Virus record (IMG/VR): IMGVR_UViG_2506381019_000003
Coordinates: 19,119 to 83,118 of that record
Direction: 5' to 3' (one strand)
Length of the DNA: 64,000 nucleotides
Source of the DNA: a virus
Lineage: Duplodnaviria; Heunggongvirae; Uroviricota; Caudoviricetes
The notes beneath the pieces are model-generated. The model saw nothing but the letters and a program-made list of their open reading frames with translations, had not been told where the DNA came from and did no database searches. Made by a program: the position numbers and the translations under genes. This document shows, piece after piece, positions 3,421 to 52,924 of the stretch (within the stretch, counting starts at the first letter, position 1; each line of letters opens with the position of its first letter).

Positions 3421-3423
3421 CGG

Positions 3424-16810: not shown

Positions 16811-17218
16811 TCAGATCCCTTCGGGGTGGGCGGACATCAGCCGGGACAGCCGGCCGAGCTCGGCGCGGCGCTGGTCGACCAGCCGGCCGAGCTCGGCGCG
16901 GCGCTGGGCGACCAGCCGGCCGAGCTCGGCGCGGCGCTGGTCGACCAGCCGGCCGAGCTCGGCGCGGCGCTGGTCGACCAGCCGGGCGAGGTCGGCGCGT
17001 TCCCTGGCGTGGAGGTGCTCGGCGGTGCGGGCCCGCGTGCGTGCCTCCTGCGTGTGGCTACGGCCGGCGGCGCGGCGGCGAGCGTCCCGCTTCCGCCGCT
17101 TCCGATCCCGCCCTTCGGCGCGGGCGGCCTGCTCGCGTTCGTGACGCCGGTCGGCAGCGTGGTCGGGTCTCACCGACGCCCCTTGATTTTTTCCCAGGCG
17201 GCGCGGGCCACAGGTCAC
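16811..17218 (-). CDS. Small basic protein with four 11-residue repeats ('RLVDQRRAELG'), encoded by a 33-bp tandem DNA repeat.
   Basis: The ORF lies directly downstream of the large terminase gene. The tandem repeat at 16849-17000 is in frame with it. Confidence 0.4.
   Translation of the reverse strand: MTCGPRRLGKNQGASVRPDHAADRRHEREQAARAEGRDRKRRKRDARRRAAGRSHTQEARTRARTAEHLHARERADLARLVDQRRAELGRLVDQRRAELGRLVAQRRAELGRLVDQRRAELGRLSRLMSAHPEGI
16849..17000. repeat. 33-bp tandem repeat, about 4.5 copies (GCCGGCCGAGCTCGGCGCGGCGCTGGTCGACCA).
   Basis: Direct repeats are visible in the sequence; one copy carries a GGGC variant. Confidence 0.8.
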
Positions 17219-17263: not shown

Positions 17264-18595
17264 TCATGCTGCGTGCCTCTCCATGTCCGGGAGCTCGATG
17301 CCCAGGTGGGGTTCCCAGGTGAACCGGGTTGTGGCGCAGGCGTACCGGCCGGCGTCGAGCGAGTGGTCGGCGACTTTGATGGGCCGGTCCTCGCCACGCT
17401 CGGCCCAGTCGTCATCCCAGGCGTAGCCGGTGACCTCGTCGATCCAGCCCTGACAGCGCCGGTGCACCCGCAGCCGGTCGTTCCCGAGCAGGCTCGCGAC
17501 GGTCCGGATCCCGGACACCACGTCGTTGTCGCCGCCCATCACGTTCGCGACGCCGTCCGAGAACAGCTGGGTCTTGAAGGAGGCCGCGGACGGGTCGACG
17601 ATGAACCACTCGGGATCCACCCGGGCGGGGGCGTTCATCCCCAGGTCCAGGGCGGTCAGCCACTCGCGGACCCTCGTGGAGTACTGCGAGTCAGTCAGGC
17701 TGCGCCGCTCGAGCTTCGAGTCCCAGCGCCACTCGTGCGTCAGGTACAGCCGCCGGTCGTTCCCCAGCCCCAGCAGCAGGCCGGAGAACGGGTTCACCGT
17801 GCCGTAGTCCACGCCCAGGGCGAGCCAACGTTCGATGCTCGGCAGACGGTCGACCAGGTGGGTGTCCTCGTCCCACATATCGTAAATCGCACCCTCGGCC
17901 ATCACCCATTGGCCGAGAATGAACCTCTTATACCAGAGGCCGACGTATTCCTTTTTCAGGTTCTCGACGTAGGTCGGATCCAAAGCGGGATTGTCGTCGA
18001 GCGTGAAATGCCAGGTGGCCAGGTCGAGGTCACCTACGCGCAGCAAGAATTTCTTCCGGAGCCAGTGTTGCGGCCCGTCGGGGTTTGTCGTCCCGAAAAT
18101 CTTGGCACCCGGGACACTGCACCGTGCCAACAGCTGCTGGAAGAACTCTTCGGGGAGAAGCGTCAGCTCGTCCGCGTAGGCGCCTGCGCAGGTCAGACCA
18201 CGGAGGCGACCTTCCGCGCGGGCATCGTTCGCTGTGATGATCTCGATGGGGCGACCGAGGATCGTCGCCGTGCTCGCCCCGCGGGTGTATTTGACCAGGC
18301 GGGCGATCGGACCGAACAGGCTCGGGTCCTGCAGCGGGCCGAAACAGTTCCGGTAAACGGTGTCGAGGGTCTTCCCGACGACCACCAGGGCGCCGCCGCG
18401 GGGCGGGTTCGCCACGTAGATCAGCCATCGCAACAGCGAACTGATCGTTTTGCCGGATCGCACGGACCCGGTCCATATGTTCAGGCGGGCCTGCGACTCG
18501 GCGACGGATCGGATTTGTTTCGGGGACAGGGGCAGGGGCAGGTCAGCCGTCGGGCTCATCGTCCGGCCCGACCACCGGGTTCTGCGCCCGCGCAA
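17264..18595 (-). CDS. terL: Terminase large subunit.
   Basis: Walker A 'GSVRSGKT'. C-terminal nuclease-like region. Classic position in the late operon. Confidence 0.85.
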   Translation of the reverse strand: MRGRRTRWSGRTMSPTADLPLPLSPKQIRSVAESQARLNIWTGSVRSGKTISSLLRWLIYVANPPRGGALVVVGKTLDTVYRNCFGPLQDPSLFGPIARLVKYTRGASTATILGRPIEIITANDARAEGRLRGLTCAGAYADELTLLPEEFFQQLLARCSVPGAKIFGTTNPDGPQHWLRKKFLLRVGDLDLATWHFTLDDNPALDPTYVENLKKEYVGLWYKRFILGQWVMAEGAIYDMWDEDTHLVDRLPSIERWLALGVDYGTVNPFSGLLLGLGNDRRLYLTHEWRWDSKLERRSLTDSQYSTRVREWLTALDLGMNAPARVDPEWFIVDPSAASFKTQLFSDGVANVMGGDNDVVSGIRTVASLLGNDRLRVHRRCQGWIDEVTGYAWDDDWAERGEDRPIKVADHSLDAGRYACATTRFTWEPHLGIELPDMERHAA

Positions 18596-32230: not shown

Positions 32231-32518
32231 ATGCCCAGCGAACCGGACGACGCCGAACGCCTCGCCCTCCTGTGGGCCGACCGGTGGGACGTCGACCCGC
32301 ACGACGCGGGCCCACTGCCGGGCGCCCCGACCCCGGACGTCTGCGACCACATGTGGTACCCGGTCATCCGGGCCCCGCGTAGCCCGCTGGTCTGCTACCG
32401 GGGGTGCGGCGCCCGGCAGCCGGCCGGATTCGTGCCGGACGCGCAGAGTGCGGCGAGGTTGGACGCCTACGCCCCCGCACTGGACCGGGTCACGCTGGCA
32501 CGGTTCACCAGCGGCTGA
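32231..32518 (+). CDS. Hypothetical protein, 95 aa.
   Basis: ORF present in the ORF track. Confidence 0.35.
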   Translation: MPSEPDDAERLALLWADRWDVDPHDAGPLPGAPTPDVCDHMWYPVIRAPRSPLVCYRGCGARQPAGFVPDAQSAARLDAYAPALDRVTLARFTSG

Positions 32519-32535
32519 CACGCCTCCAGCACGAC

Positions 32536-32568
32536 GAAGCCCCCGGCCCGGATGGGTTCGGGGGCTTC
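32536..32568. terminator. Bidirectional terminator hairpin (GAAGCCCCCG / CGGGGGCTTC) between convergent genes.
   Basis: 10-bp perfect stem visible in the sequence. Confidence 0.55.
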
Positions 32569-32662
32569 GCCGCGTCCGATGTGACTCTCTGTGGATAGTT
32601 ACCGGCGAGTGCGGGGCTCTGGCCCGCGAATCGGGGTCTCGGCCCGGTGGATCGGCTGACCT

Positions 32663-34570
32663 CTACTCGCCAGTAACAGGGTTTTGGCTACCGACCGTCA
32701 CATCCGCCGGGGCGTGCTCCACCAGATACCAGCGGCGCCGGACGTTCACCACCTGCGCGGCCCGCCCCTCCACCTCATCCCCACGGAGCGGGGCCAGGTG
32801 CTCGTACATCGTCGACGTCGCCGACCAGCCCCCCGCCCGCATCAGCTCCGACCTGGACATCCCCGCACCTGCAGCCCACGCCAGGAGCCGCCGCGCCAGG
32901 TCCGTCGATGGCACCCCCGTCGGCATCGCCGGCGCATCCGCAGCCACGGGAACCGGCCCCGCAGGCCCCTGGGCGCCCTCGTGCGCGCGCGAAGCCCCGA
33001 CCGAACGTTCGCTCTTCTCCTGCGTCCCGGTGGTGGTGTCGGGGGTTGTGGCGGTCTCGGGGGGTTCGTACTGGGCGCGGAGGGCTGCGATCTGGTCGGG
33101 TGTGGGGTTCCAGATGCGTCCTGGGCGTGGGCGGGTCTGACCGTCGAGGTAGATGAGGGCCTTCCCTGGGCGGTCGAGGGACTCCAGGGGGAAGTCGGCG
33201 AGGTTGGGGATGGCTCTGCGGATGTCGGCGGGGTTGTCCTGGATGCCGAGGAGGACGCGGGTGCGGATGTTGGTGAGGAGGCGGGTGTTGCGGATGACGT
33301 CGCGGGTGACCTTCTTGACCATCATGACCAGGGTGATGCACTCGGAGCGGGCGACGTCGGTGAGCTGGAGGACCAGGTCGAGGCACACCGGGTCGTCGAG
33401 GAGCCGTTCGACTTCGTCCATCACGTAGAGGATGTGCGGGTCGTCGTCGGTGACCTGGTGGCCGTCGAGGCCGGTGTGGGCGCCGGCGGCGGCGCGGCGG
33501 TCGACCTCGTCGAGTGCGTCGGCGAGCTGCTGGCGGGCGGCGAGGATGCCCGCGTCGAGGCCTTCCGCGTTGGTGACGGCGCGGCGGATGCAGCGGCCCC
33601 ACCGTGCGACCAGCCGGCCACCCTTGAAATCGATCGCCCACACGACGACACAGCGGCGGGCCACGGCCTGGGCGATCAGGTTGGACGCGAACACGCCCTT
33701 TCCTCCGCCGGTGCCGGCGATGACGAGGATGTGCTGGCCCAGGTGCAGCTCGATCAGCGGGCCGTCTTCGTACGGGCCGACAGGCCACGGGTCGACGGGC
33801 AGCAGGTCGGGGTCAGGGTCCGGCATGGGGATGCCGTCGTCCTGGCCCTGGGCGTCGACCTCGGGTGGGGTAAGCGGGTCGACCGCGACGACGTGCAGCA
33901 CCGCGCGGGAAGCGTCAGCGTGGACGGGTTCGACACGCAGCGCCCCGCGGCGAAGGCCGAGCTTCGCTTCGAGGTCGGGCAGGGCCGAGATCAGCTTGTC
34001 GATCCTGTGGCCGGCGAGGTCGACCCGGTGGGACCACTGTCCCTCCACCTCCCCGGGTTCGGTGGTGAGCAGCGCGACACCGGCAAGGCGCAGCTGCGCG
34101 ACCGCGTACGGCCATGCGCGCGCGAACCTGCCAGCCGCGCGGGATGCGCGTGCGCGATGGTTGCGCCACCACCACGGCCAGGCCGCCAGCGTGCCGACAG
34201 CCAGCATCCCCGAGGCCGTGCCGGTGTCCGGAGCCCAGCAGATGACCCAGACGGCCCAGGCTGCGCAGGCGTGCCCGACAGTGGCGAGTGCGCGGCGGGT
34301 GGACAGCGCGCGCGACTCGGGCGCTGGGCGCAGGCCGGCGGCGAACCACAGCACGAGCACCGCGCACACGGCGAGCACGCGCGGCAGGGTGTCGCGCAGC
34401 AGCACGGTGACGAGCGCGACGGCCAGCGCGCACCACAGCGGGGCGAGCGGGTAGCGCGTGCGGAACAGGAAACGGCGCGCGCGGCGCAGCGGACCACCCG
34501 CGCGCGTGCGCGGCTCCTGCGCGTGCGGAAGCGGCGCGACGTCCGCGCGCAAGTCGCGTGCGCGTGGCAT
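32663..34570 (-). CDS. FtsK/SpoIIIE-family DNA translocase; membrane-anchored, TraB/TraSA-like.
   Basis: N-terminal transmembrane helices. Walker A 'VIAGTGGGKGVFASN' and Walker B 'ILYVMDEVERLLDD'. The start could be further upstream; the ORF track extends to 34879. Confidence 0.7.
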   Translation of the reverse strand: MPRARDLRADVAPLPHAQEPRTRAGGPLRRARRFLFRTRYPLAPLWCALAVALVTVLLRDTLPRVLAVCAVLVLWFAAGLRPAPESRALSTRRALATVGHACAAWAVWVICWAPDTGTASGMLAVGTLAAWPWWWRNHRARASRAAGRFARAWPYAVAQLRLAGVALLTTEPGEVEGQWSHRVDLAGHRIDKLISALPDLEAKLGLRRGALRVEPVHADASRAVLHVVAVDPLTPPEVDAQGQDDGIPMPDPDPDLLPVDPWPVGPYEDGPLIELHLGQHILVIAGTGGGKGVFASNLIAQAVARRCVVVWAIDFKGGRLVARWGRCIRRAVTNAEGLDAGILAARQQLADALDEVDRRAAAGAHTGLDGHQVTDDDPHILYVMDEVERLLDDPVCLDLVLQLTDVARSECITLVMMVKKVTRDVIRNTRLLTNIRTRVLLGIQDNPADIRRAIPNLADFPLESLDRPGKALIYLDGQTRPRPGRIWNPTPDQIAALRAQYEPPETATTPDTTTGTQEKSERSVGASRAHEGAQGPAGPVPVAADAPAMPTGVPSTDLARRLLAWAAGAGMSRSELMRAGGWSATSTMYEHLAPLRGDEVEGRAAQVVNVRRRWYLVEHAPADVTVGSQNPVTGE

Positions 34571-34716
34571 GTCCGCGCGGGAGGTGTGCGCGACGGCGCG
34601 CGGACGGGTCAGCCACCCGCCCTCCGCGTGTGCCGTGCGGCGCGCACGCGGCAGCGGAGGATCCGCGCGCGGCTGTGGTTCGCGGTCGCGCGCGCCAGGG
34701 CCGAACCAGGGGCCGC

Positions 34717-35490
34717 TCACCGGCGCGCACCCGCGGCTGGCTGGGGCAGGGCGAAGTCTGGTCGCACACGCAGGCCCGTCTCGGCTGCGCCGATGTGCGG
34801 GTCGTACACCAGGTCGGCCTTCTTCGCGGCCTTGGCGATGAGCTCGGGCGCGAAGGACAGGCCGTCGAGGGCCTCCCACAGGGGGCCCATCGCCTCCATG
34901 TCGATCTGCGCGTCGCCGTCGAGGGTGTCAAGCCAGGCGCCGAGGCCTTCGCGCACGTGCGCGAAGGCGACCGCGACCGCGTGGATCTGCGCGGGCAGCC
35001 CGGGGAGTCCTTCCTCGGGGAGCGGCATGCCGGCGAGGCCGTCACCGGACTGGGCGAGGCGTAGCGCCTCCATGTGACCTCCAAACGCTGCGGTGCTCAG
35101 GGTGCGCGCGCCGACCTGCGCGCTGGGCGGGATGGTGCGCGCGGGTGCGGGCCGCGCGGCAGAGGCGTGCGCGCGCGGCGGCTTGCGCGGGTCCGCGCGC
35201 GCGGCGGCGGGTGGCGCCGGGGTCGCGCGCTCAGCGGGCCAGAGCACGCCGCGCAGCACGCCGACCGTGGCGGTGCGCGCCTGCCTGCGACGGTCCTCGC
35301 GCGTGGCCGTCCGCCACGCGCGCGCACCGGTACGCGCGCGTGACGCTCCCGCGCGCGCGGCTGCGCGGCTCGCCGGAAGACGGGAACGCCCCGCTGCGCG
35401 TCGCGCGCCGCGGGGCGTGTCCGGGTCGTTCGCCAGTCCCGCCAGCAGCCCGAGCAACAGCAGGAAACCGGCGACGGTGGCAAGGCTCAT
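34717..35490 (-). CDS. Membrane-anchored hypothetical protein. N-terminal TM 'LATVAGFLLLLGLLAGL', an Arg/Ala-rich linker and a C-terminal domain.
   Basis: ORF with an ATGA-type overlap with the upstream stop codon. The linker is low-complexity. Confidence 0.35.
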   Translation of the reverse strand: MSLATVAGFLLLLGLLAGLANDPDTPRGARRAAGRSRLPASRAAARAGASRARTGARAWRTATREDRRRQARTATVGVLRGVLWPAERATPAPPAAARADPRKPPRAHASAARPAPARTIPPSAQVGARTLSTAAFGGHMEALRLAQSGDGLAGMPLPEEGLPGLPAQIHAVAVAFAHVREGLGAWLDTLDGDAQIDMEAMGPLWEALDGLSFAPELIAKAAKKADLVYDPHIGAAETGLRVRPDFALPQPAAGARR

Positions 35491-36353
35491 CCCCCTGTTC
35501 CCGTCCGCTCCCGGGGAATGCCGGTGATGAGCGCGCCCTCCGGGGTGACCGCCCACTCGCCGCTCGCGAGCTTGCTGATCCACGGGCGGAGCGTGGACTC
35601 GCCGATGCCGAACTCGCGGCCGAGCGCTCGGGACGAGATGTGCGCGTCGGGTGTGGCGAGAAGTTGGGCGATGTGGGCGCAGGCCTTCGCGCGCTGCGTG
35701 GCAGCGTCATCGAGGGTGCGCACCTGCGCGGCCCTGCGCGCGGTCGGCTCGACGCGCGGGATCGGCGCCGTGTGCGGGTCGTCGGCCACCTGCTCGGCCG
35801 GCTCGTCGCACGCGACGGCCGCGGGCTCGGGTGTGCGCGCGTCGACGTGCGCGGGCTGCGCGGCGGGGGCCTGCTCGTGCGCGGGCTCCTCGGTGGCCAC
35901 GTCCGGCGCGGACGCCGGGGTTTCCTGCGCGGCCGGCTGGTGGTGCAGCAGCATCGCGTCAGCCACCGCGTACACCGTTGTCACATCCACGATCAGCGGG
36001 CCGAGCGGGGCGAGCACCGGGTTGATACCCACAGCGATCGCGAGCGCGTGGAGCCCGGCGAACGACAGGACGAAGGCCATCGCGAACACGAGCACAACCA
36101 GCGCCATGACAGTGGTTCGGGGCCACCCAGGCGGGGTGCGGCGAAGCACGCGGAGAAGTCCGTGGAGCGCGACGGCGGCGAGGGCTGGCGGGACGAGGGC
36201 GGCAACGGCAGCTGTGCGGTCGGAAACGTCGGGACCGTGAGCCGCGATCGCGTGGACCGCGTTCCCGGCCATGGAGAGCGCAAGGGTGCCGGTCACGACA
36301 GCCCACGGGTACGCCTGCTCCCGCCTCCGGACCGGGGCCAGGATGGCGCTCAC
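35487..36353 (-). CDS. Polytopic membrane protein with a C-terminal HTH; DUF2637-like.
   Basis: Transmembrane segments ('VMALVVLVFAMAFVLSFAGLHALAIAV'). C-terminal 'RALGREFGIGESTLRPWISKL' HTH. GTGA overlap at the start. Confidence 0.5.
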   Translation of the reverse strand: MSAILAPVRRREQAYPWAVVTGTLALSMAGNAVHAIAAHGPDVSDRTAAVAALVPPALAAVALHGLLRVLRRTPPGWPRTTVMALVVLVFAMAFVLSFAGLHALAIAVGINPVLAPLGPLIVDVTTVYAVADAMLLHHQPAAQETPASAPDVATEEPAHEQAPAAQPAHVDARTPEPAAVACDEPAEQVADDPHTAPIPRVEPTARRAAQVRTLDDAATQRAKACAHIAQLLATPDAHISSRALGREFGIGESTLRPWISKLASGEWAVTPEGALITGIPRERTGTGG

Positions 36354-36670
36354 GAGCTGATCCGGTGATTGGCGAGGAAGTCCCACGCTGGCTCGCCGAT
36401 AGGAAGACCCAGCTCGACAAACGTGACGATCACGACGATGACGATCACGGACATGGCCGTCCGGAAATGGGTCATGCCGCCGCTGACCACACCCCAGACG
36501 AGAGTGAAGCCGCCAACGCCAACGATGACGCCGACCCAGTCGAGGCCGGTCACGGGGCACCCACTGGGCGGGAAACGGCAGCTCGCAGCACACCCAACCG
36601 GGCATGTTGAGCCGAGAAAACGGCATGATTGCGCATGGCGCGAGGTCCCTCCTTGTAGGGCTCTCCGCAA
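36350..36670 (-). CDS. Small membrane protein ('GVIVGVGGFTLVWGVVSGG ... VIVIVVIVTFV').
   Basis: Hydrophobic ORF. Confidence 0.35.
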   Translation of the reverse strand: MRRALQGGTSRHAQSCRFLGSTCPVGCAASCRFPPSGCPVTGLDWVGVIVGVGGFTLVWGVVSGGMTHFRTAMSVIVIVVIVTFVELGLPIGEPAWDFLANHRISS

Positions 36671-36814: not shown

Positions 36815-37168
36815 TTAGAGCGACGCCGCGCCCCGCTGGGCCTTGTTGTAGGCCTCGACGACGTCCTTGGACATCCTGCCCCGGTCGCTGACCTGGTAGC
36901 CGTTGGCTCGGGCCCAGTTGCGAATCCGGGTGATGTGCTCGTCGGCCCTGCGGGAAATCCCGCTGGCGGCAGGCTTGCCGTTGGCGGGCTTGCTGGTGGC
37001 GCGCCGGGCCTTCGAGACGAACGGGGCCAGCGCCTCGCGGAGCTTGGCGGCGTTCGCCGCGGTGACATCGATCTCGTACTGGGCGCCGTCCAGGCCGAAC
37101 CGGACGGTTTCGTCGGCCGCCTCGCCGGTGATGTCGTCGATCAGCGAGATGACGGTCTTCTGGGCCAC
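36815..37168 (-). CDS. lsr2: Lsr2-family nucleoid-associated protein.
   Basis: 'VAQKTVISLIDDITGEAADETVRFGLDGAQYEIDVTAANAAKLREALAPFVSKARR...' with a C-terminal DNA-binding region. GTG start with a GGAGGA ribosome-binding site. Confidence 0.8.
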   Translation of the reverse strand: MAQKTVISLIDDITGEAADETVRFGLDGAQYEIDVTAANAAKLREALAPFVSKARRATSKPANGKPAASGISRRADEHITRIRNWARANGYQVSDRGRMSKDVVEAYNKAQRGAASL

Positions 37169-37256: not shown

Positions 37257-37645
37257 ACCGCCACTCCCCCGCCCGGATGCGGGTGACGGTGGGTGATGTC
37301 CGCCGGATGTCCGGGCGGACATCCGAAGCGCTGGTAGCTCGCGTGCGCCTGCGCGATAGGCGGGTGGACGTCCGGATGTCCGGAGTCGGACATGGTGACC
37401 GTAAGTGATCGTCGGGAGGGGTTCGACGCGAGCGCAGATCGCAACGATCAGTGGGAGCGGGGCGTTCGGAAATAGCGCTGACGCTCGATTCCAGGGTGGC
37501 GGCCCGGCCCCCGCCAGAGCGGGCCGCCACGAAGAACGGTACGGCCGGCGGGGCGGGGACAGTGTGGTCTCACAGCCGCCTGTGGATAACGTGAAGCGGG
37601 CCCCTACCCGGTGTGGGTAGAGGCCCGCTTCGGCGTTTCCGGGGG

Positions 37646-38602
37646 CTACCGGGTGACGGCGAACTCCGCGCCGGCGCCCGGCCAGCAGGAGAACCCGGCG
37701 GGGAGCTGCTGGCCCTTGTCGACCGCGGCGCGGAGCAGGGTCATGCACTGGGAAACCAGGACGTTCGGGTCCTGCGACACGGAGGCCGAGAGCGTTTCGT
37801 TCGCCTTCGCCTCGGCCGCCGCGGTGGCCTCCCGCTGGGTGGCGATGCGGGTCTGGGCGACCTCACCCTGAAGGGCGTTGATGCGGTCCTGCGTCGTCTT
37901 GTCGAACGCGACGTGGGAGATCACGACAGACTGGACCTCGACTGGGGCACCGACCCGGGCGGAGAGGGCCTTGGTGACCTGCTTGGACAGGTTGTCGTAG
38001 CTGGGGACCGCGTCGCCGCCGAGCGGGTTGTAGGTGCTGAACACGTCGTTCATGGCGGCGCGGAGATCCCTCGTCACCAGGCTGGCACGGACGTTGTCGA
38101 AGCCGCGGTAGTCGACGAACAGGTCGTCGGCGCTGCCGGGGTTGATCCTCCAGCGGGCGGAGGCGGACACGTAGGCCGTGGACTGGCTCGCGGTGCGGAC
38201 GACGATCTCGTTGCCCTCCCGGTCGCTGCCAGACGGCTCCGGGGCGTAGCTGTCAGTCTGGATCGCAGCGTCGAACGGGGTGACCTTCTGCCACGGCAGC
38301 TTGCCGTGGAGACCGTTGGAGAGCACGGTGCCGGTCGGTCGACCGAACGAGGTGACGATGCCGACCTTCTTCGTGCTCACCGACGTGACCGAGGACAGGA
38401 CGGTGAACAGGACGGCGAGGCCTGCGAAGAGGACAGCGACGCCGAGGGCGGCGCGGGCACCCTCGCGGCGGAGGGTCTGCAGGTCGGTGTCAGTGGTGCT
38501 GGCCGCAGCCTTCCGGGTCAGGATGCTGGCGGTGAGGGGCAGGAGGGTGAGCACGGCGAAGACGATCGCCGTGACGAACAGCTTGGGCAACGATGCTCCC
38601 AT
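37646..38602 (-). CDS. SPFH/Band-7 (prohibitin/HflC-like) membrane protein.
   Basis: N-terminal transmembrane segment, then an SPFH-like core ('KKVGIVTSFGRPTGTVLSNGLHGKLPWQKVTPFDAAIQTDSY ... VAFDKTTQDRINALQGE') and a coiled-coil tail. Confidence 0.6.
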   Translation of the reverse strand: MGASLPKLFVTAIVFAVLTLLPLTASILTRKAAASTTDTDLQTLRREGARAALGVAVLFAGLAVLFTVLSSVTSVSTKKVGIVTSFGRPTGTVLSNGLHGKLPWQKVTPFDAAIQTDSYAPEPSGSDREGNEIVVRTASQSTAYVSASARWRINPGSADDLFVDYRGFDNVRASLVTRDLRAAMNDVFSTYNPLGGDAVPSYDNLSKQVTKALSARVGAPVEVQSVVISHVAFDKTTQDRINALQGEVAQTRIATQREATAAAEAKANETLSASVSQDPNVLVSQCMTLLRAAVDKGQQLPAGFSCWPGAGAEFAVTR

Positions 38603-38619
38603 TGAATCGAACGTGTGTT

Positions 38620-39030
38620 CTACTTGCGGGTTGTGACTCTCCTGCTGGACGGCGAGCTCCGTCTTTCGCTCGCCCGGTCCGCCCCGCCGGCCGTGGTGCT
38701 GCGGCGGGTAGCGGAGCTGATGGGCCGCTGCGAGGCGGTCTGGGTGGACCTCGCGGACGGCAGCCGTGGGCTGGTCGTCTGGGGTCGGGTCAAGACGTGT
38801 GAGGTCCTGCCGTGACGGCGGTCGTCTTCGTCGTCGATCCCGTTCCGCGGGTTCACGTCGGGCTCGCACTCCCACCCGTCGTCGTCCCACTCGGCGACCT
38901 GGCCGGCCAGGCACAGCGGCGGGGCCGGACGGGGAGACGGACGAGACGGGGTGGAGCCGCACCCTGCCGCCGCAACCACCAGGGCCACGGCAGCAGCAGA
39001 GGTCAGCCGTAGGTGGTAGCGAGCACCCAT
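38620..39030 (-). CDS. Putative lipoprotein.
   Basis: Signal peptide with lipobox 'LVVAAAGCGS'. Confidence 0.45.
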   Translation of the reverse strand: MGARYHLRLTSAAAVALVVAAAGCGSTPSRPSPRPAPPLCLAGQVAEWDDDGWECEPDVNPRNGIDDEDDRRHGRTSHVLTRPQTTSPRLPSARSTQTASQRPISSATRRSTTAGGADRASERRSSPSSRRVTTRK

Positions 39031-42712: not shown

Positions 42713-43950
42713 CACACCTCCTGGTCTGTGCGGAACGGGAGGGAGTGCTCGGGGCGCAGGGAGCGCCAGAGCGCGGGCAGGGAGGAGTAGCCGTCGAGCT
42801 CGCGGAGGACCGCGCCGCGTACCAGCGGGGTGAGGCTCTGCAGGGAGGCGAAGAACTGCTTCCGGTCATCGCGGAGGCGGTCGCGGGCGCCGAACTCGAT
42901 CTGCACGGTGTCGTGGAGGCTGGCGAGATCGGCTTCCAGGCCGTTGCGGACGCCGCGGGCCCAGTCGTCGAACTCGTCCGGGACCTGCGCGAGGAGCTCC
43001 GCGAACGGGCCGCCTTCGACAGCGCGGAGGCGGGTGATGTCGGCGGCCGGGCAGCCCAGGGTCTGGGCGAGTTCTTTGTCGGTGAGCGTCGCGGCGAAAA
43101 GCTCGACGCCGGTGTATCGCCAGACGTCGCGGGCGCTGGTTCCCGTAAGGGCCCTATGCAACCGGACATAATCGGCCATCTTGATCTTTACGCGAGTACC
43201 GGAGGCGAACCGAACGACGTAACCTTCTTCCTCCGTTCCGGAGACGGTCCGGCCTCGGTGCGTGCGGCTCTCGGTCGCCAACGCAGCGATTTCCCCGAGC
43301 GGGGGCAGGTCGACGTCGCGCCAGTGGGATGCGGACAGACCCCACGGCCAGCGGGTGGCGGTGTCCTCGTAGTCGAGTTCGGCGCCGTCGGACTGGATGG
43401 CTGCGAGGAATGTGAGCCCTTCTCCGTCGAGCCCGTAGTCGACGACGATCCTGTTCTCGGCGTAGATCATCTCGGCGAGATAGGTGACCTCGGGATTCAG
43501 GTCAGCTGTGTTCGCGAGGTCGAGCTGCCGTTGAGCCCAGAGCGCCTGTTCGCTGGCGAACGATCCCTTAGAAGCGGCGTGCCACTTCCCATCGAAGTGA
43601 AAGATGATTGCGAGTGAGCCATCTATTTTGCCGAACAGCTCGAATGGCTCGTGTAGCGGGAGCGGCGGCGCGTACGGCCTCCCCGCTAGGTGCTCCCCGT
43701 AGTTGAAGAACTTCTCGAAGGGCCGGGCGATGACACGGCCGCTGGCGCGGTGGACGACCAGGCCGCGGCACCGTGTGGTGATCGCGTCCCACTCGGCCTT
43801 GTACTGGCAGGTCCGGGTGTAGGTGAGGATGTCGAGCGGCAGGTCGGGGTGGGGCTTGCGGGTGACCAGCCCGGCCGTGATGTGCCGGTCGAGCTGGTCG
43901 AGGTCGAACAGGTCGTAGATGTGGACCGGCGCGGGGGCGGTGGTGGTCAT
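42712..43950 (-). CDS. ATP-dependent RNA ligase, nucleotidyltransferase superfamily.
   Basis: Motif I 'ELFGKIDGSLAII' (KxDG lysine). 412 aa. Adjacent to the pnkp gene. Confidence 0.6.
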   Translation of the reverse strand: MTTTAPAPVHIYDLFDLDQLDRHITAGLVTRKPHPDLPLDILTYTRTCQYKAEWDAITTRCRGLVVHRASGRVIARPFEKFFNYGEHLAGRPYAPPLPLHEPFELFGKIDGSLAIIFHFDGKWHAASKGSFASEQALWAQRQLDLANTADLNPEVTYLAEMIYAENRIVVDYGLDGEGLTFLAAIQSDGAELDYEDTATRWPWGLSASHWRDVDLPPLGEIAALATESRTHRGRTVSGTEEEGYVVRFASGTRVKIKMADYVRLHRALTGTSARDVWRYTGVELFAATLTDKELAQTLGCPAADITRLRAVEGGPFAELLAQVPDEFDDWARGVRNGLEADLASLHDTVQIEFGARDRLRDDRKQFFASLQSLTPLVRGAVLRELDGYSSLPALWRSLRPEHSLPFRTDQEV

Positions 43951-44894
43951 CAGAAATTGCCTTCTGCGACTTGGAAAACGGTCAGGCCGATCTGGCGCCA
44001 GCCCGCAACAACGGAAGCCCGGTCGTCGAAAACCCCGGTAACCCGGTAGTTGTGGCGGATCTCCCGATCGAAGATCTCCATCTTCACGATGAGGTCTTTG
44101 CGGGAGTCGCCAATGGCGCGCATGAACAGGCCCTCGTGCGGGCGGCGGACGTAGGAGGAGAGCCAGGCGTGGGTGTCCGCGCGGCAGCCGGCGGAGCGGC
44201 CGGACAGGTAGATGATGCGGTGGCCGGCGGACTGCATTGCCTTGACGGCGATGATGACCGGCCAGTTCGGCAGGTCCTCAGAGACGCGGTTTTCGTCGTA
44301 CGGGTCGCGTCCGTTGTGGAGGCACAGGGTGCCGTCCAGGTCGACCAGAATGGCGTCCGGCTTGCCCTCGGGCAGGGTGTAGGGCAGGAACACCGGCGTG
44401 GGATGGATCTTGGGGAGTTCGAGGGGCAGCTTCTTCCCTGCCAGGAAACGGCGGTGCTGGTTGCGGATCGCCTGCTCGCCCACCCGGGCGCCCGTGACCG
44501 CGCCGGGCATGGGCTCCGGGCGGAGCGTGTCACGGCGGACGCACAGCTCCACGTCGACGTCGGTCAGGTCGAGTACGGAGAACAGGGCGCCGGCCCGGAG
44601 CGCGGTCTCCATCCAGTGACGTACGTACTGGGCGGCCAGGTTCATCTCGTCGACGATCACGTTCACGCCGGCGCGGAGCAGGGTGTTGACCTGGGCGTCG
44701 CGGACGGCGGTCACGTGCTTCTCGCCTGCGGTGTCGCCGTAGGTGAGGCCGAGCTGGTCGCGGAGCGGGTCGCGGCTCACCACCACGGCGCGGTGGCCGG
44801 CGGCGCGGAGCTGGTCACGGCGGCGGCGGGCCGCGGTGCTCTTCCCGGAGCCGGGCAGGCCGCGGGTGATGGTCAGGGTGGGACGGTCGGTCAC
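43950..44894 (-). CDS. pnkp: Polynucleotide kinase-phosphatase: P-loop kinase domain plus HAD-type 3'-phosphatase domain.
   Basis: 'TITRGLPGSGKST' Walker A and 'AILVDLDGTLCLH' DxDGT motif. GTGA-overlap start. Confidence 0.7.
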   Translation of the reverse strand: MTDRPTLTITRGLPGSGKSTAARRRRDQLRAAGHRAVVVSRDPLRDQLGLTYGDTAGEKHVTAVRDAQVNTLLRAGVNVIVDEMNLAAQYVRHWMETALRAGALFSVLDLTDVDVELCVRRDTLRPEPMPGAVTGARVGEQAIRNQHRRFLAGKKLPLELPKIHPTPVFLPYTLPEGKPDAILVDLDGTLCLHNGRDPYDENRVSEDLPNWPVIIAVKAMQSAGHRIIYLSGRSAGCRADTHAWLSSYVRRPHEGLFMRAIGDSRKDLIVKMEIFDREIRHNYRVTGVFDDRASVVAGWRQIGLTVFQVAEGNF

Positions 44895-45826
44895 AGCCTC
44901 CGCTCCCTGATCGGCCCGCCGGCCTGCGGTTCGACGTAGCCGGTGCCCGCGCAGTGCCCGCACGGCGTCTCGGCTACGGCCTCCGCAACATCGGCACACA
45001 CCTCCGCGGTGAATTCCTCCAACGTCGCGAGAGCGGCAACGACGTTCTCCCCGCGGATCTCACGCCCGAGATGGACGGTGAAGTACAACGTTCGCCGGTC
45101 GGGCTTGTTCTCGAAGCGGGGTCGACGTGCCCGGGGCCCGGACACGTCCACCCGGATCGTTCGTCCCGGCTGGTAGGCCCGGCGGACCGTGAGGTTGAAC
45201 TCGTGCGGGTTGCTGTGATCCCACCAGTCGATATCCGCAGTTGGAACCGCGCGCCGGACAGCGTCTACCAATCCCCGCTGATAGCCGGTCAGCTTGCCGG
45301 GGAACAGCCGGCCATATTCCGGCCAGTTACCCAGCACGTAGGGAAGATCCGGTGTCCAACTGCAGCCGGAAGGAAGAACCGGGAGGTCTCCATCCAGGAG
45401 GATGGCGTCGGAGATCTCCAGGGTGACAATGTCGCCGGGAACATCCTCACGGATCGTCCGGTACAGGAGCCCGAAGGTCTCCCAATCCTGATCCAGCCTT
45501 TTCCTGCCCTCCTCCACGGTGAGGGTGAGCGGGTACTTCGCCGACTCGGTTTCCGGGTCCTCAAGCTGGTAACCGGTCACGCGGGTGCTACCAGGAAGGT
45601 GTGCGTGGAGCGGGCCCGCTGTGCCGGTGGGGACGATCCACCAGTTCTCGACCGGCAGCGCCTGAAGGCGTGTTCCGTCGGCGGTGGTCCATCGGTCGAT
45701 GGAGGTCCAACTTCCCTGGGGCTTCGCGGGGACGTCGGCACCGCGGTCGTTAAGGCCCTCCGTGGTGCTGGGCAGATGGTAGGCGGTGCGCCCATCGGGC
45801 AGCCGGATGGCGAAGCGGTCAGGCAT
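44891..45826 (-). CDS. Hypothetical protein, 311 aa.
   Basis: ORF present in the ORF track. Confidence 0.4.
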   Translation of the reverse strand: MPDRFAIRLPDGRTAYHLPSTTEGLNDRGADVPAKPQGSWTSIDRWTTADGTRLQALPVENWWIVPTGTAGPLHAHLPGSTRVTGYQLEDPETESAKYPLTLTVEEGRKRLDQDWETFGLLYRTIREDVPGDIVTLEISDAILLDGDLPVLPSGCSWTPDLPYVLGNWPEYGRLFPGKLTGYQRGLVDAVRRAVPTADIDWWDHSNPHEFNLTVRRAYQPGRTIRVDVSGPRARRPRFENKPDRRTLYFTVHLGREIRGENVVAALATLEEFTAEVCADVAEAVAETPCGHCAGTGYVEPQAGGPIRERRL

Positions 45827-51187: not shown

Positions 51188-51888
51188 GCGCGAAGCGCGT
51201 CGGCGGCCTGCGTTTTCTGGATGTCGGTTGCCGGGCCGTAGTCAGCGCGGGCGGGGATCGTCCGGCCGAACCCGGATCGGCGGATCTGCACTTTCACGGC
51301 TTCGGCCCGCGGCCGGTCGGCATGTACGGCGGCCTGGGCCTCACGTTCGGCGGCTTCCACACCCGAACCTCCTTCGAGGGCCTTCGGTGTCCGCTTGGCC
51401 GCTTCGAGCGCGGCCAGCGGGGTCATAAGCGCGGCCTCAGTCTCCCGGACGGACACGGGCGTGTAGGCGTCAACGAAGCGTCGGTGGGCGTAGCCGTCCC
51501 GCCCGTCAATCGCCTCCCAGCCGATCCCGTTCTCGTGTGGCGACATCGTCTTGTACACAGCGGGATGGATCGAGGGCTCCGGACCGGTGCGCCGGTTCAG
51601 CCAGCGGTTCATCTCCCGGGCTTGCGCGTAGGCGGCTTCGGTGTCGGGTGGGAGGAGTCCGCGGGCCGCGATGACGCGGCGGCGGATGTCCCCAACCTCG
51701 ATCCAGGGGCCGCCGATCACAAAATGGGCCCGGACGGCCTGCGCGGCGTCGATGAAGGGGACGTCGGCCAGCAGGTCATGCCAGGCATCGCCGGTGCCCG
51801 GGGTGTCGTCGGTGCTGGGGACGATAGTGAACTTCGGCGACAAAGCGCGGATCAAGTGGAGCAGCTTCGAGACTTCAGCGCGGGTCAT
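51148..51888 (-). CDS. Hypothetical replication-module protein, 246 aa, immediately downstream of the rep gene.
   Basis: Assigned from its position next to the iteron-containing initiator. Confidence 0.4.
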   Translation of the reverse strand: MTRAEVSKLLHLIRALSPKFTIVPSTDDTPGTGDAWHDLLADVPFIDAAQAVRAHFVIGGPWIEVGDIRRRVIAARGLLPPDTEAAYAQAREMNRWLNRRTGPEPSIHPAVYKTMSPHENGIGWEAIDGRDGYAHRRFVDAYTPVSVRETEAALMTPLAALEAAKRTPKALEGGSGVEAAEREAQAAVHADRPRAEAVKVQIRRSGFGRTIPARADYGPATDIQKTQAADALRAWAAQNGYEAAGS

Positions 51889-52889
51889 CCTGTCCCCTCG
51901 TTCACAACCTGGCCGTCGATGACCTCGTGGTTGGCGCTGCCGAAGAAGCCGCCGCTGGCGAATGGGTCACGGATAGCGGATCCGGCCGCGATGGCGGCTT
52001 CTTGCGCGAATGCTTCATCGGAGCGGGCGCGGCGGTTCATGGGCAGGACGTTCCCGGCCTCGGATTCGGCTATGGCCTGCTGGACGAACGTGGGAAGCAT
52101 TCCCGGCCCGCAGCGGGCCCGGTTGCGCCACAGGAGCCGCAGGCCGTCCAAGATCTGCTCCTTGGTGAAGCCGTCGTCGAGCAGCTCGTCCGTGATCGTC
52201 AGCAGCTTCGACCGGTCGCGGCGTGGCAGCGGATGCGAGAGTGCGCCGGCGTACTGGTCGATGAGCTCGTCGGCGACTCCCGTAAGCACGGCGGCTCGGG
52301 TGTCGCCGGAGCGTGCCTCCCGTTGCTTCGACGCCCGCATGTCGGTCGGGCCGCCCTCGCGCGCCTGCGCGCGGGTCGTGCCCTTGGTTGGTGGTTGGTA
52401 GGTCTCTTGGTCTAGTACTTGGTCTTCCTTATAGGGCATTGAGCCAACTTCCGGTTGAGACTGTTGGATCTTCCGGTTGAGACCGGTCGATCTTCCGGTT
52501 GAGACCTCGTGATCTTCCGGTTGAGCCCGGTCGTTCTTCTGGTTGAGGTCCGCATCCGCGGCCGGCGGATCGGCATCGACCGGCACTGAAACGGGGACCA
52601 GCGCCGCGTACGTGCTCGCCGCGACCGTCCCGTCTCCGCGCCGGTGGCCGCGGGCTGTGCGGGTGAGGTAGCCGTTTTCCTGAGCCCATGCCAGGTGGCC
52701 CGAGACCGCCCGGGTACTGATCCCGACGGCGGCGGCAATCGTCGACTCCAACACCCGCGCGTTGGACCCGTCAGAGTCCATGTAGGTGCCAAGGGTGAGC
52801 AGGACAGAGAGGCGGTACTTCACAACGTCCGGGTCGGAGCGGAGTCGGATTCCCCAGACCCGGGTGGAAACACGGCCGGACTCGCTCAC
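51885..52889 (-). CDS. Replication initiator protein (winged-helix N-terminus). The iteron origin is embedded in the gene.
   Basis: HTH 'VLESTIAAAVGISTRAVSGHLAWAQENGYLTR'. The peptide repeats 'STGxxxLNRKI' are encoded by the five 22-bp DNA iterons. Confidence 0.55.
   Translation of the reverse strand: MSESGRVSTRVWGIRLRSDPDVVKYRLSVLLTLGTYMDSDGSNARVLESTIAAAVGISTRAVSGHLAWAQENGYLTRTARGHRRGDGTVAASTYAALVPVSVPVDADPPAADADLNQKNDRAQPEDHEVSTGRSTGLNRKIQQSQPEVGSMPYKEDQVLDQETYQPPTKGTTRAQAREGGPTDMRASKQREARSGDTRAAVLTGVADELIDQYAGALSHPLPRRDRSKLLTITDELLDDGFTKEQILDGLRLLWRNRARCGPGMLPTFVQQAIAESEAGNVLPMNRRARSDEAFAQEAAIAAGSAIRDPFASGGFFGSANHEVIDGQVVNEGTG
52447..52550. repeat. Iteron array: five tandem 22-bp repeats with core CTTCCGGTTGAGAC. 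Candidate replication origin.
   Basis: Direct repeats with 21-22 bp periodicity are visible in the sequence. Confidence 0.7.
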
Positions 52890-52924
52890 CAGGCGCCACC
52901 GGCGGCGTGGGCGCTAACACAGAC

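What the first reader, a model, noticed from the sequence alone, without database searches (positions are those of the whole stretch)
32597..36670. Streptomyces-conjugation-like module (FtsK/SpoIIIE TraB-type translocase plus membrane/HTH proteins) inside a phage early operon.
The FtsK-like gene (32663-34570) has N-terminal transmembrane helices like plasmid TraB/TraSA. It is preceded by a DUF2637-like polytopic membrane protein with a C-terminal HTH (35487-36353) and two small membrane proteins. The arrangement is reminiscent of tra/spd loci of actinomycete integrative/conjugative elements (established). In a phage it could mediate DNA translocation, spread, or exclusion. A 13-bp inverted repeat, GTTACCGGCGAGT ... 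ACTCGCCAGTAAC (one mismatch), brackets the gene end at 32597-32675 and could be a cis-acting, clt-like site.
Basis: partly seen in the sequence, partly recalled or inferred. Interest (0 to 1): 0.65.

Follow-up and report, generated by a model that had tools for sequence, protein, structure and literature searches.

The report
Plasmid-type DNA pump in Frankia prophage
A prophage of the filamentous bacterium Parafrankia carries a very divergent copy of the membrane DNA pump that Streptomyces plasmids use for conjugation, with membrane partner genes; such pumps are already common in phages of related bacteria, so this is a new member of a known but functionally unexplained class.

Summary
On the minus strand, 32663-36636 is a chain of five translationally coupled ORFs, each joined to the next by a 4-bp overlap. 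They are a 28-aa uORF, a 67-aa 2-TM protein, a DUF2637 membrane protein with a C-terminal HTH, a 257-aa TM-anchored protein, and a 685-aa FtsK/TraB-type protein. An lsr2 gene precedes the chain. The cassette lies inside a prophage that has an integrase, terminase, portal and capsid genes. The large protein misses Pfam FtsK_SpoIIIE (E=0.049). It is still a TraB-family homologue on four lines of evidence:
- NCBIfam plasmid_TraB is its only significant hit.
- hhalign against pIJ101 Tra gives 95.5% probability.
- 73 of its 75 nearest relatives hit the TraB model.
- The AlphaFold model matches the FtsK motor at E=1e-17.

The accessory proteins show no homology to pIJ101 SpdB or KilB. The 13-bp inverted repeat is real, but 46 comparable repeats occur in the window against about 13 expected. 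It is absent from related loci and sits beside a terminator hairpin, so a clt role is unsupported. A better cis-site candidate is a non-coding array of CGGAC(A/G)TCCG palindromes at 37290-37405, the most conserved stretch of the cassette. FtsK-like translocases are annotated in hundreds of actinophages, and the plasmid-phage pZL12 conjugates with one. Verdict: new, divergent member of a known kind.

The parts
32663..34720 (-). TraB/FtsK-type membrane DNA translocase homologue, 685 aa (alternative ATG start at 34570 gives 635 aa).
   Evidence: Sequence: NCBIfam plasmid_TraB is the only significant hit, E=5e-11. hhalign against pIJ101 Tra gives 95.5% probability. Structure: AlphaFold pLDDT 83; Foldseek matches the FtsK motor at E=1e-17. 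Start: GC3 frame and the identical public protein P0001.
34163..34444 (-). N-terminal membrane domain of the translocase, about four TM helices (aa 93-186).
   Evidence: Hydropathy. AlphaFold helices H93-111, H114-129, H139-162 and H166-186.
33068..34075 (-). FtsK-like alpha/beta motor domain (aa 216-551). Walker A GTGGGKG is at 33695-33718 and Walker B VMDE at 33413-33433. Two unusual substitutions: Walker A has Gly where Ser/Thr is expected, and the TQRP glutamine is replaced by Lys.
   Evidence: Foldseek aligns about 395 columns to FtsK motors with TM-score 0.65-0.68 normalised to the target. Column counts among 75 relatives: S62/T8/G5 at the Walker A position and Q68/K4 at the TQRP position.
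32720..32905 (-). C-terminal winged-helix (H-H-H-beta-beta) putative DNA-recognition domain (aa 606-667), after a disordered linker.
   Evidence: AlphaFold model, pLDDT about 75-95 in this segment. Relatives and pIJ101 Tra carry wHTH Pfam hits (HTH_IclR, MarR_2) at the same position.
34717..35490 (-). 257-aa protein with an N-terminal TM anchor, an Arg/Ala-rich linker and a conserved C-terminal domain of about 110 aa. No family match. ATGA overlaps at both ends.
   Evidence: Frame plot. Orthologue alignment A3. No Pfam, PHROG, NCBIfam, PADLOC or PDB hit.
35487..36353 (-). DUF2637 polytopic membrane protein (about four TM helices) with an acidic/Pro-rich linker and a C-terminal HTH (about 35568-35648).
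   Evidence: Pfam DUF2637 at E=1.6e-8. phrog_2342 at 3.8e-17 and phrog_733 at 4.4e-13. Alignment A2. Hydropathy.
36350..36553 (-). 67-aa protein with two TM helices. Its GTG start overlaps the uORF stop, and its stop overlaps the DUF2637 gene start.
   Evidence: Orthologues of 62-65 aa in L001, L004 and L140.
36550..36636 (-). 28-aa upstream ORF with a strong Shine-Dalgarno sequence (AAGGAGGG), conserved in related loci and translationally coupled to the 2-TM gene.
36815..37168 (-). lsr2 (117 aa), first gene of the cassette, encoding a nucleoid-associated xenogeneic-silencer homologue.
   Evidence: Pfam Lsr2 at 7e-26 and Lsr2_DNA-bd at 4.5e-15. Synteny with the translocase cassette in L001, L004, L005 and L140.
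37290..37405 (-). Conserved non-coding array of CGGAC(A/G)TCCG 10-bp palindromes, two of them in tandem at an 8-bp period, flanking a GC-rich dyad. It lies about 120-240 nt upstream of lsr2. Candidate operator or cis-acting (clt-like) site.
   Evidence: It is the most conserved stretch of the 5-kb cassette among four loci: 70-72% four-way invariant columns, against at most 67% in any coding window. Frame-breaking indels show it is not coding. The motif is clustered here only. No Rfam hit and no covariation.
37593..37631 (-). GC-rich hairpin (GAAGCGGGCC...GGCCCGCTTC) after the Band7/SPFH gene. Probable terminator marking the upstream boundary of the cassette.
   Evidence: Read directly from the sequence.
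32598..32677 (.).
   Evidence: It folds as a 13-bp stem with one G-U pair in the minus-strand RNA. Not conserved. Not unusual in frequency.
32532..32572 (.). Strong GC hairpin between the convergent genes. Probable bidirectional terminator ending the cassette.
   Evidence: fold z-score -4.7 for 32515-32690. Its arm CGGCGAAGCCCCCG recurs downstream of the orthologue in L004.

Best explanation
The region is a self-contained, terminator-bracketed cassette in the early/middle region of a Parafrankia prophage. It consists of lsr2 followed by five translationally coupled ORFs, the last of which encodes a very divergent member of the TraB/FtsK family of membrane-anchored double-stranded-DNA translocases.

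Shown: homology and fold of the translocase; its TM, motor and winged-helix architecture; conserved linkage with a DUF2637 membrane-HTH protein and a third protein in at least six independent loci; location inside a phage genome that has its own terminase.

Inferred: the translocase assembles as a ring in the membrane. Together with the polytopic DUF2637-HTH protein and the TM-anchored 257-aa protein it forms an envelope or septum DNA-transfer complex. This complex would move the phage's double-stranded genome between hyphal compartments or between contacting hyphae without virions. TraB and the Spd proteins do this for Streptomyces plasmids, and the plasmid-phage pZL12 is reported to transfer with its tra gene and two neighbouring genes. 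The winged helix would select the DNA through a repeated cis site. The best candidate for that site is the conserved palindrome array at 37290-37405, not the 3' inverted repeat.
For: Homology:
- NCBIfam plasmid_TraB is the only significant family hit, covering aa 138-494.
- 73 of the 75 nearest relatives from a profile search of 1.8 billion proteins hit plasmid_TraB, the best at 1e-58. 63 of 75 hit Pfam FtsK_SpoIIIE.
- hhalign against pIJ101 Tra gives 95.5% probability, E=1.4e-8, 307 columns. Against pZL12 gp071 it gives 91.5%.

Structure:
- AlphaFold with a 75-sequence alignment gives pLDDT 83.
- Foldseek's top hits are FtsK motors (E=1e-17, about 395 columns), then the conjugation coupling protein TcpA, then EccC.

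Architecture: TM helices, motor domain, disordered linker and winged helix.

Synteny: a DUF2637 or membrane-HTH protein, then a middle protein X, then the translocase, is conserved in L001, L004, L005, L006 and L008, with 4-bp overlaps in L001, L005 and L008 (gene coordinates); in L139 the genes are only close together and hhalign found no similarity between its 661-aa middle protein and the translocase profile. A membrane-HTH protein also sits immediately upstream of the TraB-like gene in Streptomyces phage YDN12.

Precedent: pZL12 transfer needs tra plus two adjacent genes (PMC3583192). Thoma et al. [quoted passage not shown]

Cis site: clt loci are arrays of short direct or inverted repeats (PMC3583192, PMC4447253). 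The 37290-37405 array is the most conserved part of the cassette.
Against: - No functional data exist for any phage FtsK-like gene.
- The Frankia clade has Gly in place of the Walker A Ser/Thr and Lys in place of the TQRP Gln. These positions are nearly invariant in 75 relatives, so motor activity may be altered or lost.
- The protein is far below the curated thresholds: 41 bits against the 800-bit TraB cut-off, and 13.5 bits against the 24-bit Pfam cut-off.
- The accessory proteins show no homology to pIJ101 SpdB or KilB, or to pZL12 gp73.
- The palindrome array lies upstream of a promoter-like region. It could equally be a repressor operator. The palindromic symmetry fits a dimeric regulator better than the asymmetric 8-bp TRS bound by TraB.
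- No plasmid-type rep or par genes were identified in the part of the window that was scanned.
Confidence: 0.42

Rival explanations
1. Host-takeover or developmental manipulation. The membrane FtsK-like protein, together with Lsr2, interferes with host septation, chromosome segregation or sporulation during infection or lysogeny, rather than moving phage DNA between cells.
For: The actinophage literature groups phage ftsK with whiB, parB and ssgA as candidate manipulators of host development (PMC10117723, PMC13587820). PHROG files the matching families under 'moron, auxiliary metabolic gene and host takeover'. An FtsK-domain gene of mycobacteriophage Babsiella is listed with a toxicity score of 4 (PMC7474061). 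The cassette is co-transcribed with lsr2, which encodes a global DNA-binding protein.
Against: The closest characterised relatives are plasmid transfer proteins, not chromosomal FtsK: TraB is the top family for 73 of 75 relatives, against 30 for FtsK. Conserved coupling to two membrane proteins and a sequence-specific-looking winged helix points to a dedicated DNA-transfer complex.
Confidence: 0.2
2. Exclusion or defence function. The membrane ATPase complex, expressed from the prophage, blocks or expels incoming DNA (superinfecting phage or conjugative elements), or acts as an abortive-infection module.
For: The cassette has its own promoter-like region and terminators, as prophage morons do. 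There is a weak PADLOC hit to mad8, E=3e-6. In relative L008 the module lies next to SocA_Panacea and GmrSD_C genes, which are typical of defence islands.
Against: The PADLOC hit is a generic P-loop match of 25 bits. No known defence system has this gene set. The module is also present in lytic-type Streptomyces phages.
Confidence: 0.13
3. Degenerate motor used as a membrane tether. With Walker A GKG and TQRP changed to VKK, the protein no longer pumps DNA. It anchors phage DNA at the membrane or septum through its winged helix, for replication, partition or packaging-site organisation. The DUF2637-HTH protein would be a second membrane-DNA tether.
For: Two near-invariant catalytic positions are substituted, and the substitutions are conserved within the clade. 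Both membrane proteins carry DNA-binding domains.
Against: The Walker A Lys, the Walker B Asp-Glu and the overall motor fold are retained with high model confidence. Conservation of the whole motor at 40-56% identity across the clade argues for retained enzymatic constraint.
Confidence: 0.15
4. One reading: the 13-bp inverted repeat at 32598-32677 is the clt-like recognition site of the translocase.
For: Several plasmid clt loci overlap or adjoin the 3' end of tra and contain inverted repeats (PMC3583192). The repeat is real.
Against: It is absent downstream of the orthologues in L001 and L004. It is a single pair rather than an array. There are 46 comparable repeats in the window against about 13 expected. 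It stacks with the terminator hairpin in the RNA fold.
Confidence: 0.05

Closest known systems
TraB/Tra (KilA) DNA translocases of Streptomyces conjugative plasmids and AICEs (pSVH1 TraB, pIJ101 Tra, pSAM2 TraSA)
   Same: Homologous: hhalign 95.5% to pIJ101 Tra, and NCBIfam plasmid_TraB is the best family. Collinear architecture of N-terminal membrane region, FtsK alpha/beta motor and C-terminal winged helix. Encoded in an operon with translationally coupled membrane-protein genes. In relative L001 a GntR/UTRA regulator sits next to the gene, as TraR/KorA does.
   Different: About 20-25% identity, far below the equivalog cut-off. Walker A has Gly instead of Ser/Thr, and the TQRP Gln is Lys. 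It lies in a tailed-phage genome, not a plasmid or AICE. No recognisable Spd, Rep (RepSA/RepAM/Prim-Pol) or Pra/Kor genes were found. No array of direct 8-bp repeats at the gene's 3' end.
Streptomyces plasmid-phage pZL12 / phage ZL12 (Zhong et al. 2010, as cited in PMC3583192 and PMC4487206)
   Same: A tailed-phage genome carrying a TraB-family gene (gp071; hhalign 91.5% to this family). That gene is preceded by a large protein (gp072) and a polytopic membrane protein (gp073), the same order as here. Transfer is reported to need tra plus two adjacent genes.
   Different: pZL12 is maintained as a plasmid with ParA/ParB (PMC4487206). The element here has an integrase at its end, and no par genes were found among the ORFs scanned. 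The accessory proteins are not detectably homologous. The host is Streptomyces, not Frankia.
'FtsK-like DNA translocase' genes of sequenced actinophages (for example Streptomyces phages YDN12, TP1604, Hiyaa, Spocter; Saccharomonospora phage PIS 136; Thermobifida phage P1312; PHROGs 12531 and 31069)
   Same: Same protein superfamily in the same kind of genome: 279 and 260 phage records hit, and BFVD structural hits up to E=5e-24. YDN12 gp69, just upstream of its translocase, has 3-4 TM helices, a Pro/Ala linker and a C-terminal HTH, like the DUF2637-HTH protein here.
   Different: The window's protein is so divergent that tblastn finds no phage at E<1e-3. Only six close homologues exist among 5.8 billion proteins, from Frankia genomes and metagenomes. 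The function of all these phage genes is untested.
FtsK/SpoIIIE chromosomal translocases and TcpA of pCW3
   Same: Best solved-structure matches for the motor domain.
   Different: No FtsK gamma-domain or KOPS-type signature was identified. The membrane domain and genomic context differ.

Membership tests
FtsK/SpoIIIE superfamily (Pfam PF01580) | Sequence match to PF01580 at or above the gathering score (24 bits) | tested here: not met
   13.5 bits, E=0.049. 63 of 75 nearest relatives do match.
FtsK/SpoIIIE superfamily (Pfam PF01580) | FtsK-type alpha/beta (RecA-like) motor fold | tested here: met
   AlphaFold pLDDT 83. Foldseek against FtsK motor domains gives E=1e-17, target-normalised TM-score 0.65-0.68 and about 395 aligned columns.
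FtsK/SpoIIIE superfamily (Pfam PF01580) | Canonical catalytic motifs: Walker A GK[ST], Walker B hhhhDE, TQRP | tested here: inconclusive
   The Walker A Lys and the Walker B DE are present. Ser/Thr is replaced by Gly, and the TQRP Gln by Lys.
Streptomyces-type plasmid transfer protein TraB (NCBIfam NF041214) | Equivalog-level sequence score (cut-off 800 bits) | tested here: not met
   41.8 bits, E=5e-11. It is the only significant NCBIfam hit but far below the cut-off.
Streptomyces-type plasmid transfer protein TraB (NCBIfam NF041214) | Domain order: N-terminal membrane association, translocase domain, C-terminal winged helix | tested here: met
   TM helices aa 93-186, motor aa 216-551, wHTH aa 606-667. 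Collinear hhalign to pIJ101 Tra, 200-541 of 648.
Streptomyces-type plasmid transfer protein TraB (NCBIfam NF041214) | Cognate clt: an array of short (7-9 bp) repeats bound by the winged helix, usually near tra | tested here: inconclusive
   No repeat array at the 3' end of the gene. A conserved palindrome array lies 2.6 kb upstream, at 37290-37405. Binding is not testable here.
Streptomyces-type plasmid transfer protein TraB (NCBIfam NF041214) | Mediates conjugal transfer of double-stranded DNA | not testable with these tools
   Requires mating or spread assays.
Actinomycete integrative and conjugative element (AICE) | Int + Rep (RepSA/RepAM/Prim-Pol) + Tra within about 10-60 kb, without virion genes (Ghinet et al. 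2011, PMC3218068) | tested here: not met
   The integrase and the Tra-like gene are present. The element encodes capsid, portal, minor capsid and terminase, and only a weak phage O-like initiator. No AICE Rep family was found among the ORFs scanned.
Spd (spread) proteins of Streptomyces plasmids | Homology to SpdB/SpdB2/KilB | tested here: not met
   hhalign probability is 0.2% or less against pIJ101 SpdB and KilB. Spd proteins are known to be highly diverse (PMC4447253), so this does not exclude an analogous role.
DUF2637 (PF10935) | Match at or above the gathering score (22.8 bits) | tested here: met
   35.1 bits, E=1.6e-8, for 35487-36353. Public annotation 'DUF2637 domain-containing protein [Parafrankia sp. 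EUN1f]'.
Phage packaging ATPase (terminase) | Serves as the packaging motor of the phage | tested here: not met
   A separate large terminase lies at 17264-18601 (Terminase_6N/Terminase_3). The FtsK-like gene lies in the early region and is membrane-anchored.

The most novel reading that the evidence does not exclude
This Frankia prophage is a phage-conjugative hybrid. It can spread its double-stranded genome from hyphal compartment to compartment, or between hyphae, without making virions. It would do so with the TraB-like ring plus the DUF2637-HTH channel/tether, and the ultra-conserved CGGAC(A/G)TCCG array would act as its clt. The modified catalytic site (GKG, VKK) would mark a mechanistically distinct sub-branch of FtsK motors.
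Probability: 0.2. Interest if true: 0.75.

Novelty: new member of a known kind. Interest (0 to 1): 0.4.

Why it matters
FtsK/TraB-like genes occur in hundreds of actinophage genomes, but none has a demonstrated role. The only functional precedent found here is the plasmid-phage pZL12. To my knowledge no Frankia phage has been isolated, and genetic exchange in Frankia is poorly understood.

This prophage family offers a compact, conserved test case with three parts: a membrane-HTH protein, an unknown partner protein, and a TraB-like motor. It also has an unusually conserved candidate cis site. Showing virion-independent spread of a phage genome in a mycelial bacterium would change how phage propagation, plaque containment and horizontal transfer in actinomycetes are understood. 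If the cassette instead manipulates host development or excludes incoming DNA, that would explain a widespread actinophage gene class.

The case also shows that HMM-threshold surveys of AICEs, such as the PF01580-based survey of Frankia genomes in PMC3218068, would miss this divergent clade.

Tried and rejected
- Megablast of 35 kb of the window against 50,697 phages found only two short (~70-nt, 88%) matches at 2776-2851, overlapping the ORFs at 2363-2800 and 2801-3013 (+) and 2395-3423 (-), none of them identified, to a Gordonia-phage gene annotated minor tail protein and a mycobacteriophage hypothetical gene.
- tblastn of the translocase and of the DUF2637 protein against phages and plasmids gave no match or one weak hit. 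The plasmid hit's neighbourhood was uninformative.
- The second homologous-protein run, with a 75-sequence profile, was swamped by EccC proteins.
- The search for related loci with that alignment failed because it had no sufficiently conserved stretch.
Only loci already known, plus the IMG/VR contig L138, carried the extended element.
- Rfam searches of the cassette and of the whole window found nothing. RNAalifold on the conserved non-coding element showed no covariation.
- PDB sequence searches with the winged helix, the 257-aa family and the DUF2637-HTH family found nothing significant.
- hhalign of the accessory proteins against pIJ101 SpdB and KilB, the L008 middle protein, pZL12 gp73 and YDN12 gp69 found no significant similarity.
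- The first AlphaFold model, from 6 sequences, was poor (pLDDT 57) and was replaced.
- The afdb50 fold library was unavailable.
- A scan for 8-mer repeat arrays near the 3' end of the gene found none.
- Rejected: the idea that the FtsK-like gene is the packaging ATPase, because a terminase is present.
- Rejected: the idea that the cassette is an AICE inserted in or beside the prophage, because phage genes flank it on both sides and the same linkage recurs in other phage contigs.

Full report
**Context.** The window is about 70% GC and most genes run on the minus strand. It is a prophage.
- Right end: a tyrosine integrase at 62420-64000 (+).
- Leftward early region: an AAA_24 protein, a weak O-like replication initiator at 51885-52913, a DUF2786 protein, polynucleotide kinase-phosphatase at 43950-45059, and a Band7/SPFH protein at 37646-38962.
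- A short plus-strand block at 29.4-32.5 kb whose products have PHROG hits.
- Late genes on the minus strand: a TROVE protein, large terminase at 17264-18601, SPP1-type portal, minor capsid protein 2 and major capsid.

No tRNA gene and no Rfam family are present. Two proteins of the finding are 100% identical to proteins annotated in Parafrankia sp. EUN1f. One relative, identical to L001 in this region, is catalogued as an 80.9-kb viral genome in IMG/VR (L138).

**The observation.** GC3 frame analysis resolves the region into a chain of minus-strand genes joined by 4-bp start/stop overlaps:
- a 28-aa uORF with a strong Shine-Dalgarno sequence (36550-36636);
- a 67-aa protein with two TM helices (36350-36553);
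- a 288-aa DUF2637 protein (35487-36353; Pfam E=1.6e-8) with about four TM helices, an acidic/Pro-rich linker and a C-terminal HTH;
- a 257-aa protein (34717-35490) with one TM anchor, an Arg/Ala-rich linker and a conserved C-terminal domain that has no family match;
- the FtsK-like gene (32663-34720, 685 aa).

The upstream start fits the GC3 signal, the 4-bp coupling and the public annotation. An lsr2 gene (36815-37168) heads the unit. A GC hairpin at 37593-37631 follows the preceding Band7 gene. A strong hairpin at 32532-32572 lies between the translocase gene and a convergent plus-strand ORF. The cassette therefore looks like its own transcription unit.

**What the large protein is.** It fails Pfam FtsK_SpoIIIE (E=0.049) and has no tblastn match in 50,697 phage records. 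Only six close homologues were found among 5.8 billion proteins, from Frankia genomes and metagenomes. Its placement is nevertheless clear:
- NCBIfam plasmid_TraB is its only significant family, E=5e-11.
- A profile of the six sequences finds 2,195 proteins at E<1e-3 in 1.8 billion representatives.
- Of the 75 nearest, 73 hit plasmid_TraB (best 1e-58), 63 hit FtsK_SpoIIIE, and several have wHTH Pfam hits.
- hhalign against the pIJ101 transfer protein Tra gives 95.5% probability over 307 collinear columns.
- With the 75-sequence alignment, AlphaFold gives pLDDT 83 and pTM 0.71. The model has four TM helices (aa 93-186), an alpha/beta domain and RecA-like core (aa 216-551), a disordered linker, and a three-helix, two-strand winged helix (aa 606-667).
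- Foldseek's best solved matches are FtsK motor domains (E=1e-17, about 395 columns, target-normalised TM-score 0.66). The conjugation coupling protein TcpA comes next, then EccC/EssC.

This is the TraB architecture. One deviation matters. In this clade the Walker A Ser/Thr is Gly, and the Gln of the TQRP motif is Lys. Among 75 relatives those positions read S62/T8/G5 and Q68/K4. The Walker A Lys and the Walker B Asp-Glu are kept.

**The module.** The order 'membrane DUF2637(-HTH) protein, middle protein, translocase' recurs in relatives at 28-56% identity: L001, L004, L005, L006 and L008, with 4-bp overlaps in L001, L005 and L008 (gene coordinates). In L139 the genes are near one another. In L001, L004, L005 and L140, lsr2 and the small TM gene are also conserved. 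L008 carries an endolysin and a Dit-like tail gene nearby. The accessory proteins show no similarity to pIJ101 SpdB or KilB. The likeness to a tra/spd locus is therefore one of architecture: translationally coupled membrane proteins next to tra, as described for pSVH1 in PMC4447253. It is not one of homology.

**Cis elements.** However, the window contains 46 such repeats against about 13 expected. The repeat is missing downstream of the orthologues, whereas the neighbouring terminator arm is shared with L004. It folds as a stem stacked on the terminator hairpin. No 8-mer array lies near the 3' end of the gene.

A different element stands out. Upstream of lsr2, 37290-37405 holds four to five copies of the palindrome CGGAC(A/G)TCCG. 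Two are in tandem at an 8-bp period, and they flank a GC-rich dyad. Across four loci whose proteins are only 36-56% identical, this non-coding stretch is the most conserved part of the whole 5-kb cassette: 70-72% four-way invariant columns. Frame-breaking indels exclude coding. The motif is clustered only here. There is no Rfam hit and no covariation. It is either an operator array or the cognate cis site of one of the two DNA-binding membrane proteins. Published clt loci are arrays of short direct and inverted repeats (PMC3583192). Short conserved palindromes bound by SpdA occur on Streptomyces plasmids (PMC4170104).

**Comparison with what is known.** FtsK-like translocases are routine in sequenced actinophages.
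- The relative P0155 hits 279 phage records, including 96 Streptomyces and 51 Mycobacterium phages, mostly annotated 'FtsK-like DNA translocase'. One of them is the plasmid-phage ZL12/pZL12.
- pIJ101 Tra hits 260 records, with up to 46% identity over 83% of its length in phages such as YDN12, TP1604 and Geonosis.
- BFVD holds full-length structural matches, for example an 853-aa protein at E=5e-24.
- In YDN12 the gene immediately upstream encodes 3-4 TM helices, a Pro/Ala linker and a C-terminal HTH, the same design as the DUF2637-HTH protein.
- In pZL12 the order is membrane protein gp073, gp072, then tra gp071. gp071 is homologous to this family (91.5%).

[quoted passage not shown] Thoma et al. 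(PMC4447253) had already suggested that Spd-like proteins of actinophages may help spread phage DNA. Other authors list phage ftsK among candidate manipulators of host development (PMC10117723, PMC13587820). The Pfam-based AICE survey of Frankia genomes, which included EUN1f (PMC3218068), would not have detected this protein.

**Mechanism.** The best-supported reading, at about 0.4, is a membrane DNA-transfer complex that moves the phage's double-stranded genome between hyphal compartments or hyphae, by analogy with TraB/Spd and pZL12. The steps shown are homology, fold, architecture, conserved linkage and phage context. Ring assembly, pumping, site recognition and the biological outcome are inferred. 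Four rivals remain:
- host-development takeover;
- DNA exclusion or defence (the only support is a weak PADLOC mad8 hit);
- a catalytically altered membrane tether, suggested by the Walker A and TQRP changes;

**Verdict.** This is a new and unusually divergent member of a known, functionally uncharacterised class of actinophage genes. It sits in what appears to be a Frankia prophage lineage and has an interesting conserved candidate cis site. Interest is moderate.

Noticed in passing
window 37290-37405 (minus strand), also L001 6853-6960, L004 6583-6690, L005 6811-6920: A non-coding array of CGGAC(A/G)TCCG palindromes upstream of lsr2. It is more conserved than any coding part of the cassette across four divergent phages. 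It has no Rfam match and no covariation. Its function (operator or clt-like site) is unknown.
   Followed up: partly
window 36550-36636 (-): A conserved 28-aa upstream ORF (MRNHAVFSAQHARLGVLRAAVSRPVGAP) with a strong Shine-Dalgarno sequence. It is translationally coupled (GTGA) to the 67-aa 2-TM gene. Equivalent uORFs occur in L001, L004 and L140.
   Followed up: partly
window 33695-33718 and about 33314-33316 (codons 342 and 469 of the translocase): The Frankia-phage clade has Walker A GK-G instead of GK-S/T, and VK(K/R) instead of TQRP. These positions are nearly invariant in 75 relatives.
   Followed up: partly
window 52448-52547: 4.5 copies of a 22-bp repeat (CTTCCGGTTGAGACCGGTCGAT) inside the O-like replication-initiator gene 51885-52913. 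These are probably iterons marking the phage origin.
   Followed up: no
window 16847-16999: 4.6 near-perfect copies of a 33-bp in-frame tandem repeat (CAGCCGGCCGAGCTCGGCGCGGCGCTGGTCGAC) in a small ORF just downstream of the terminase gene. Each unit contains the palindrome GCCGAGCTCGGC.
   Followed up: no
window 25903-27681 (-): A TROVE-domain (Ro60-like) protein is encoded at the head of the late region. No Y-RNA or other Rfam family was detected anywhere in the window.
   Followed up: partly
window 43950-45059 (-): A polynucleotide kinase-phosphatase (AAA_33 + HAD_PNKP; phrog_505 at E=3e-79), an RNA/DNA end-repair enzyme, in the early region.
   Followed up: no
window 88-2394 (-): A 768-aa protein with an N,N-dimethylformamidase beta-subunit-like C-terminal domain (DMFA2_C, E=1e-59) at the far end of the structural gene block. 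It may be a tail-associated enzyme.
   Followed up: no
L001 12028-12823: In the metagenomic relative, a GntR/UTRA regulator gene follows the translocase gene directly. The perfect palindrome GCTAGCCGGCTAGC lies in the 22-nt gap. This recalls the TraR/KorA kil-kor regulators of Streptomyces plasmids.
   Followed up: no
L143 (Streptomyces phage YDN12) 1235-1648 and 3540-6965: The isolated phage YDN12 carries a MutT/NUDIX hydrolase a few genes upstream of its membrane-HTH and TraB-like gene pair. From my own knowledge, NUDIX (Pif) is a conjugal-immunity factor of the AICE pSAM2.
   Followed up: no
window 37646-38962 (-): A Band7/SPFH membrane protein (phrog_200, E=1e-48) lies immediately upstream of the cassette. 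In the relatives this position is taken by an oppositely oriented UvrD-like helicase.
   Followed up: no
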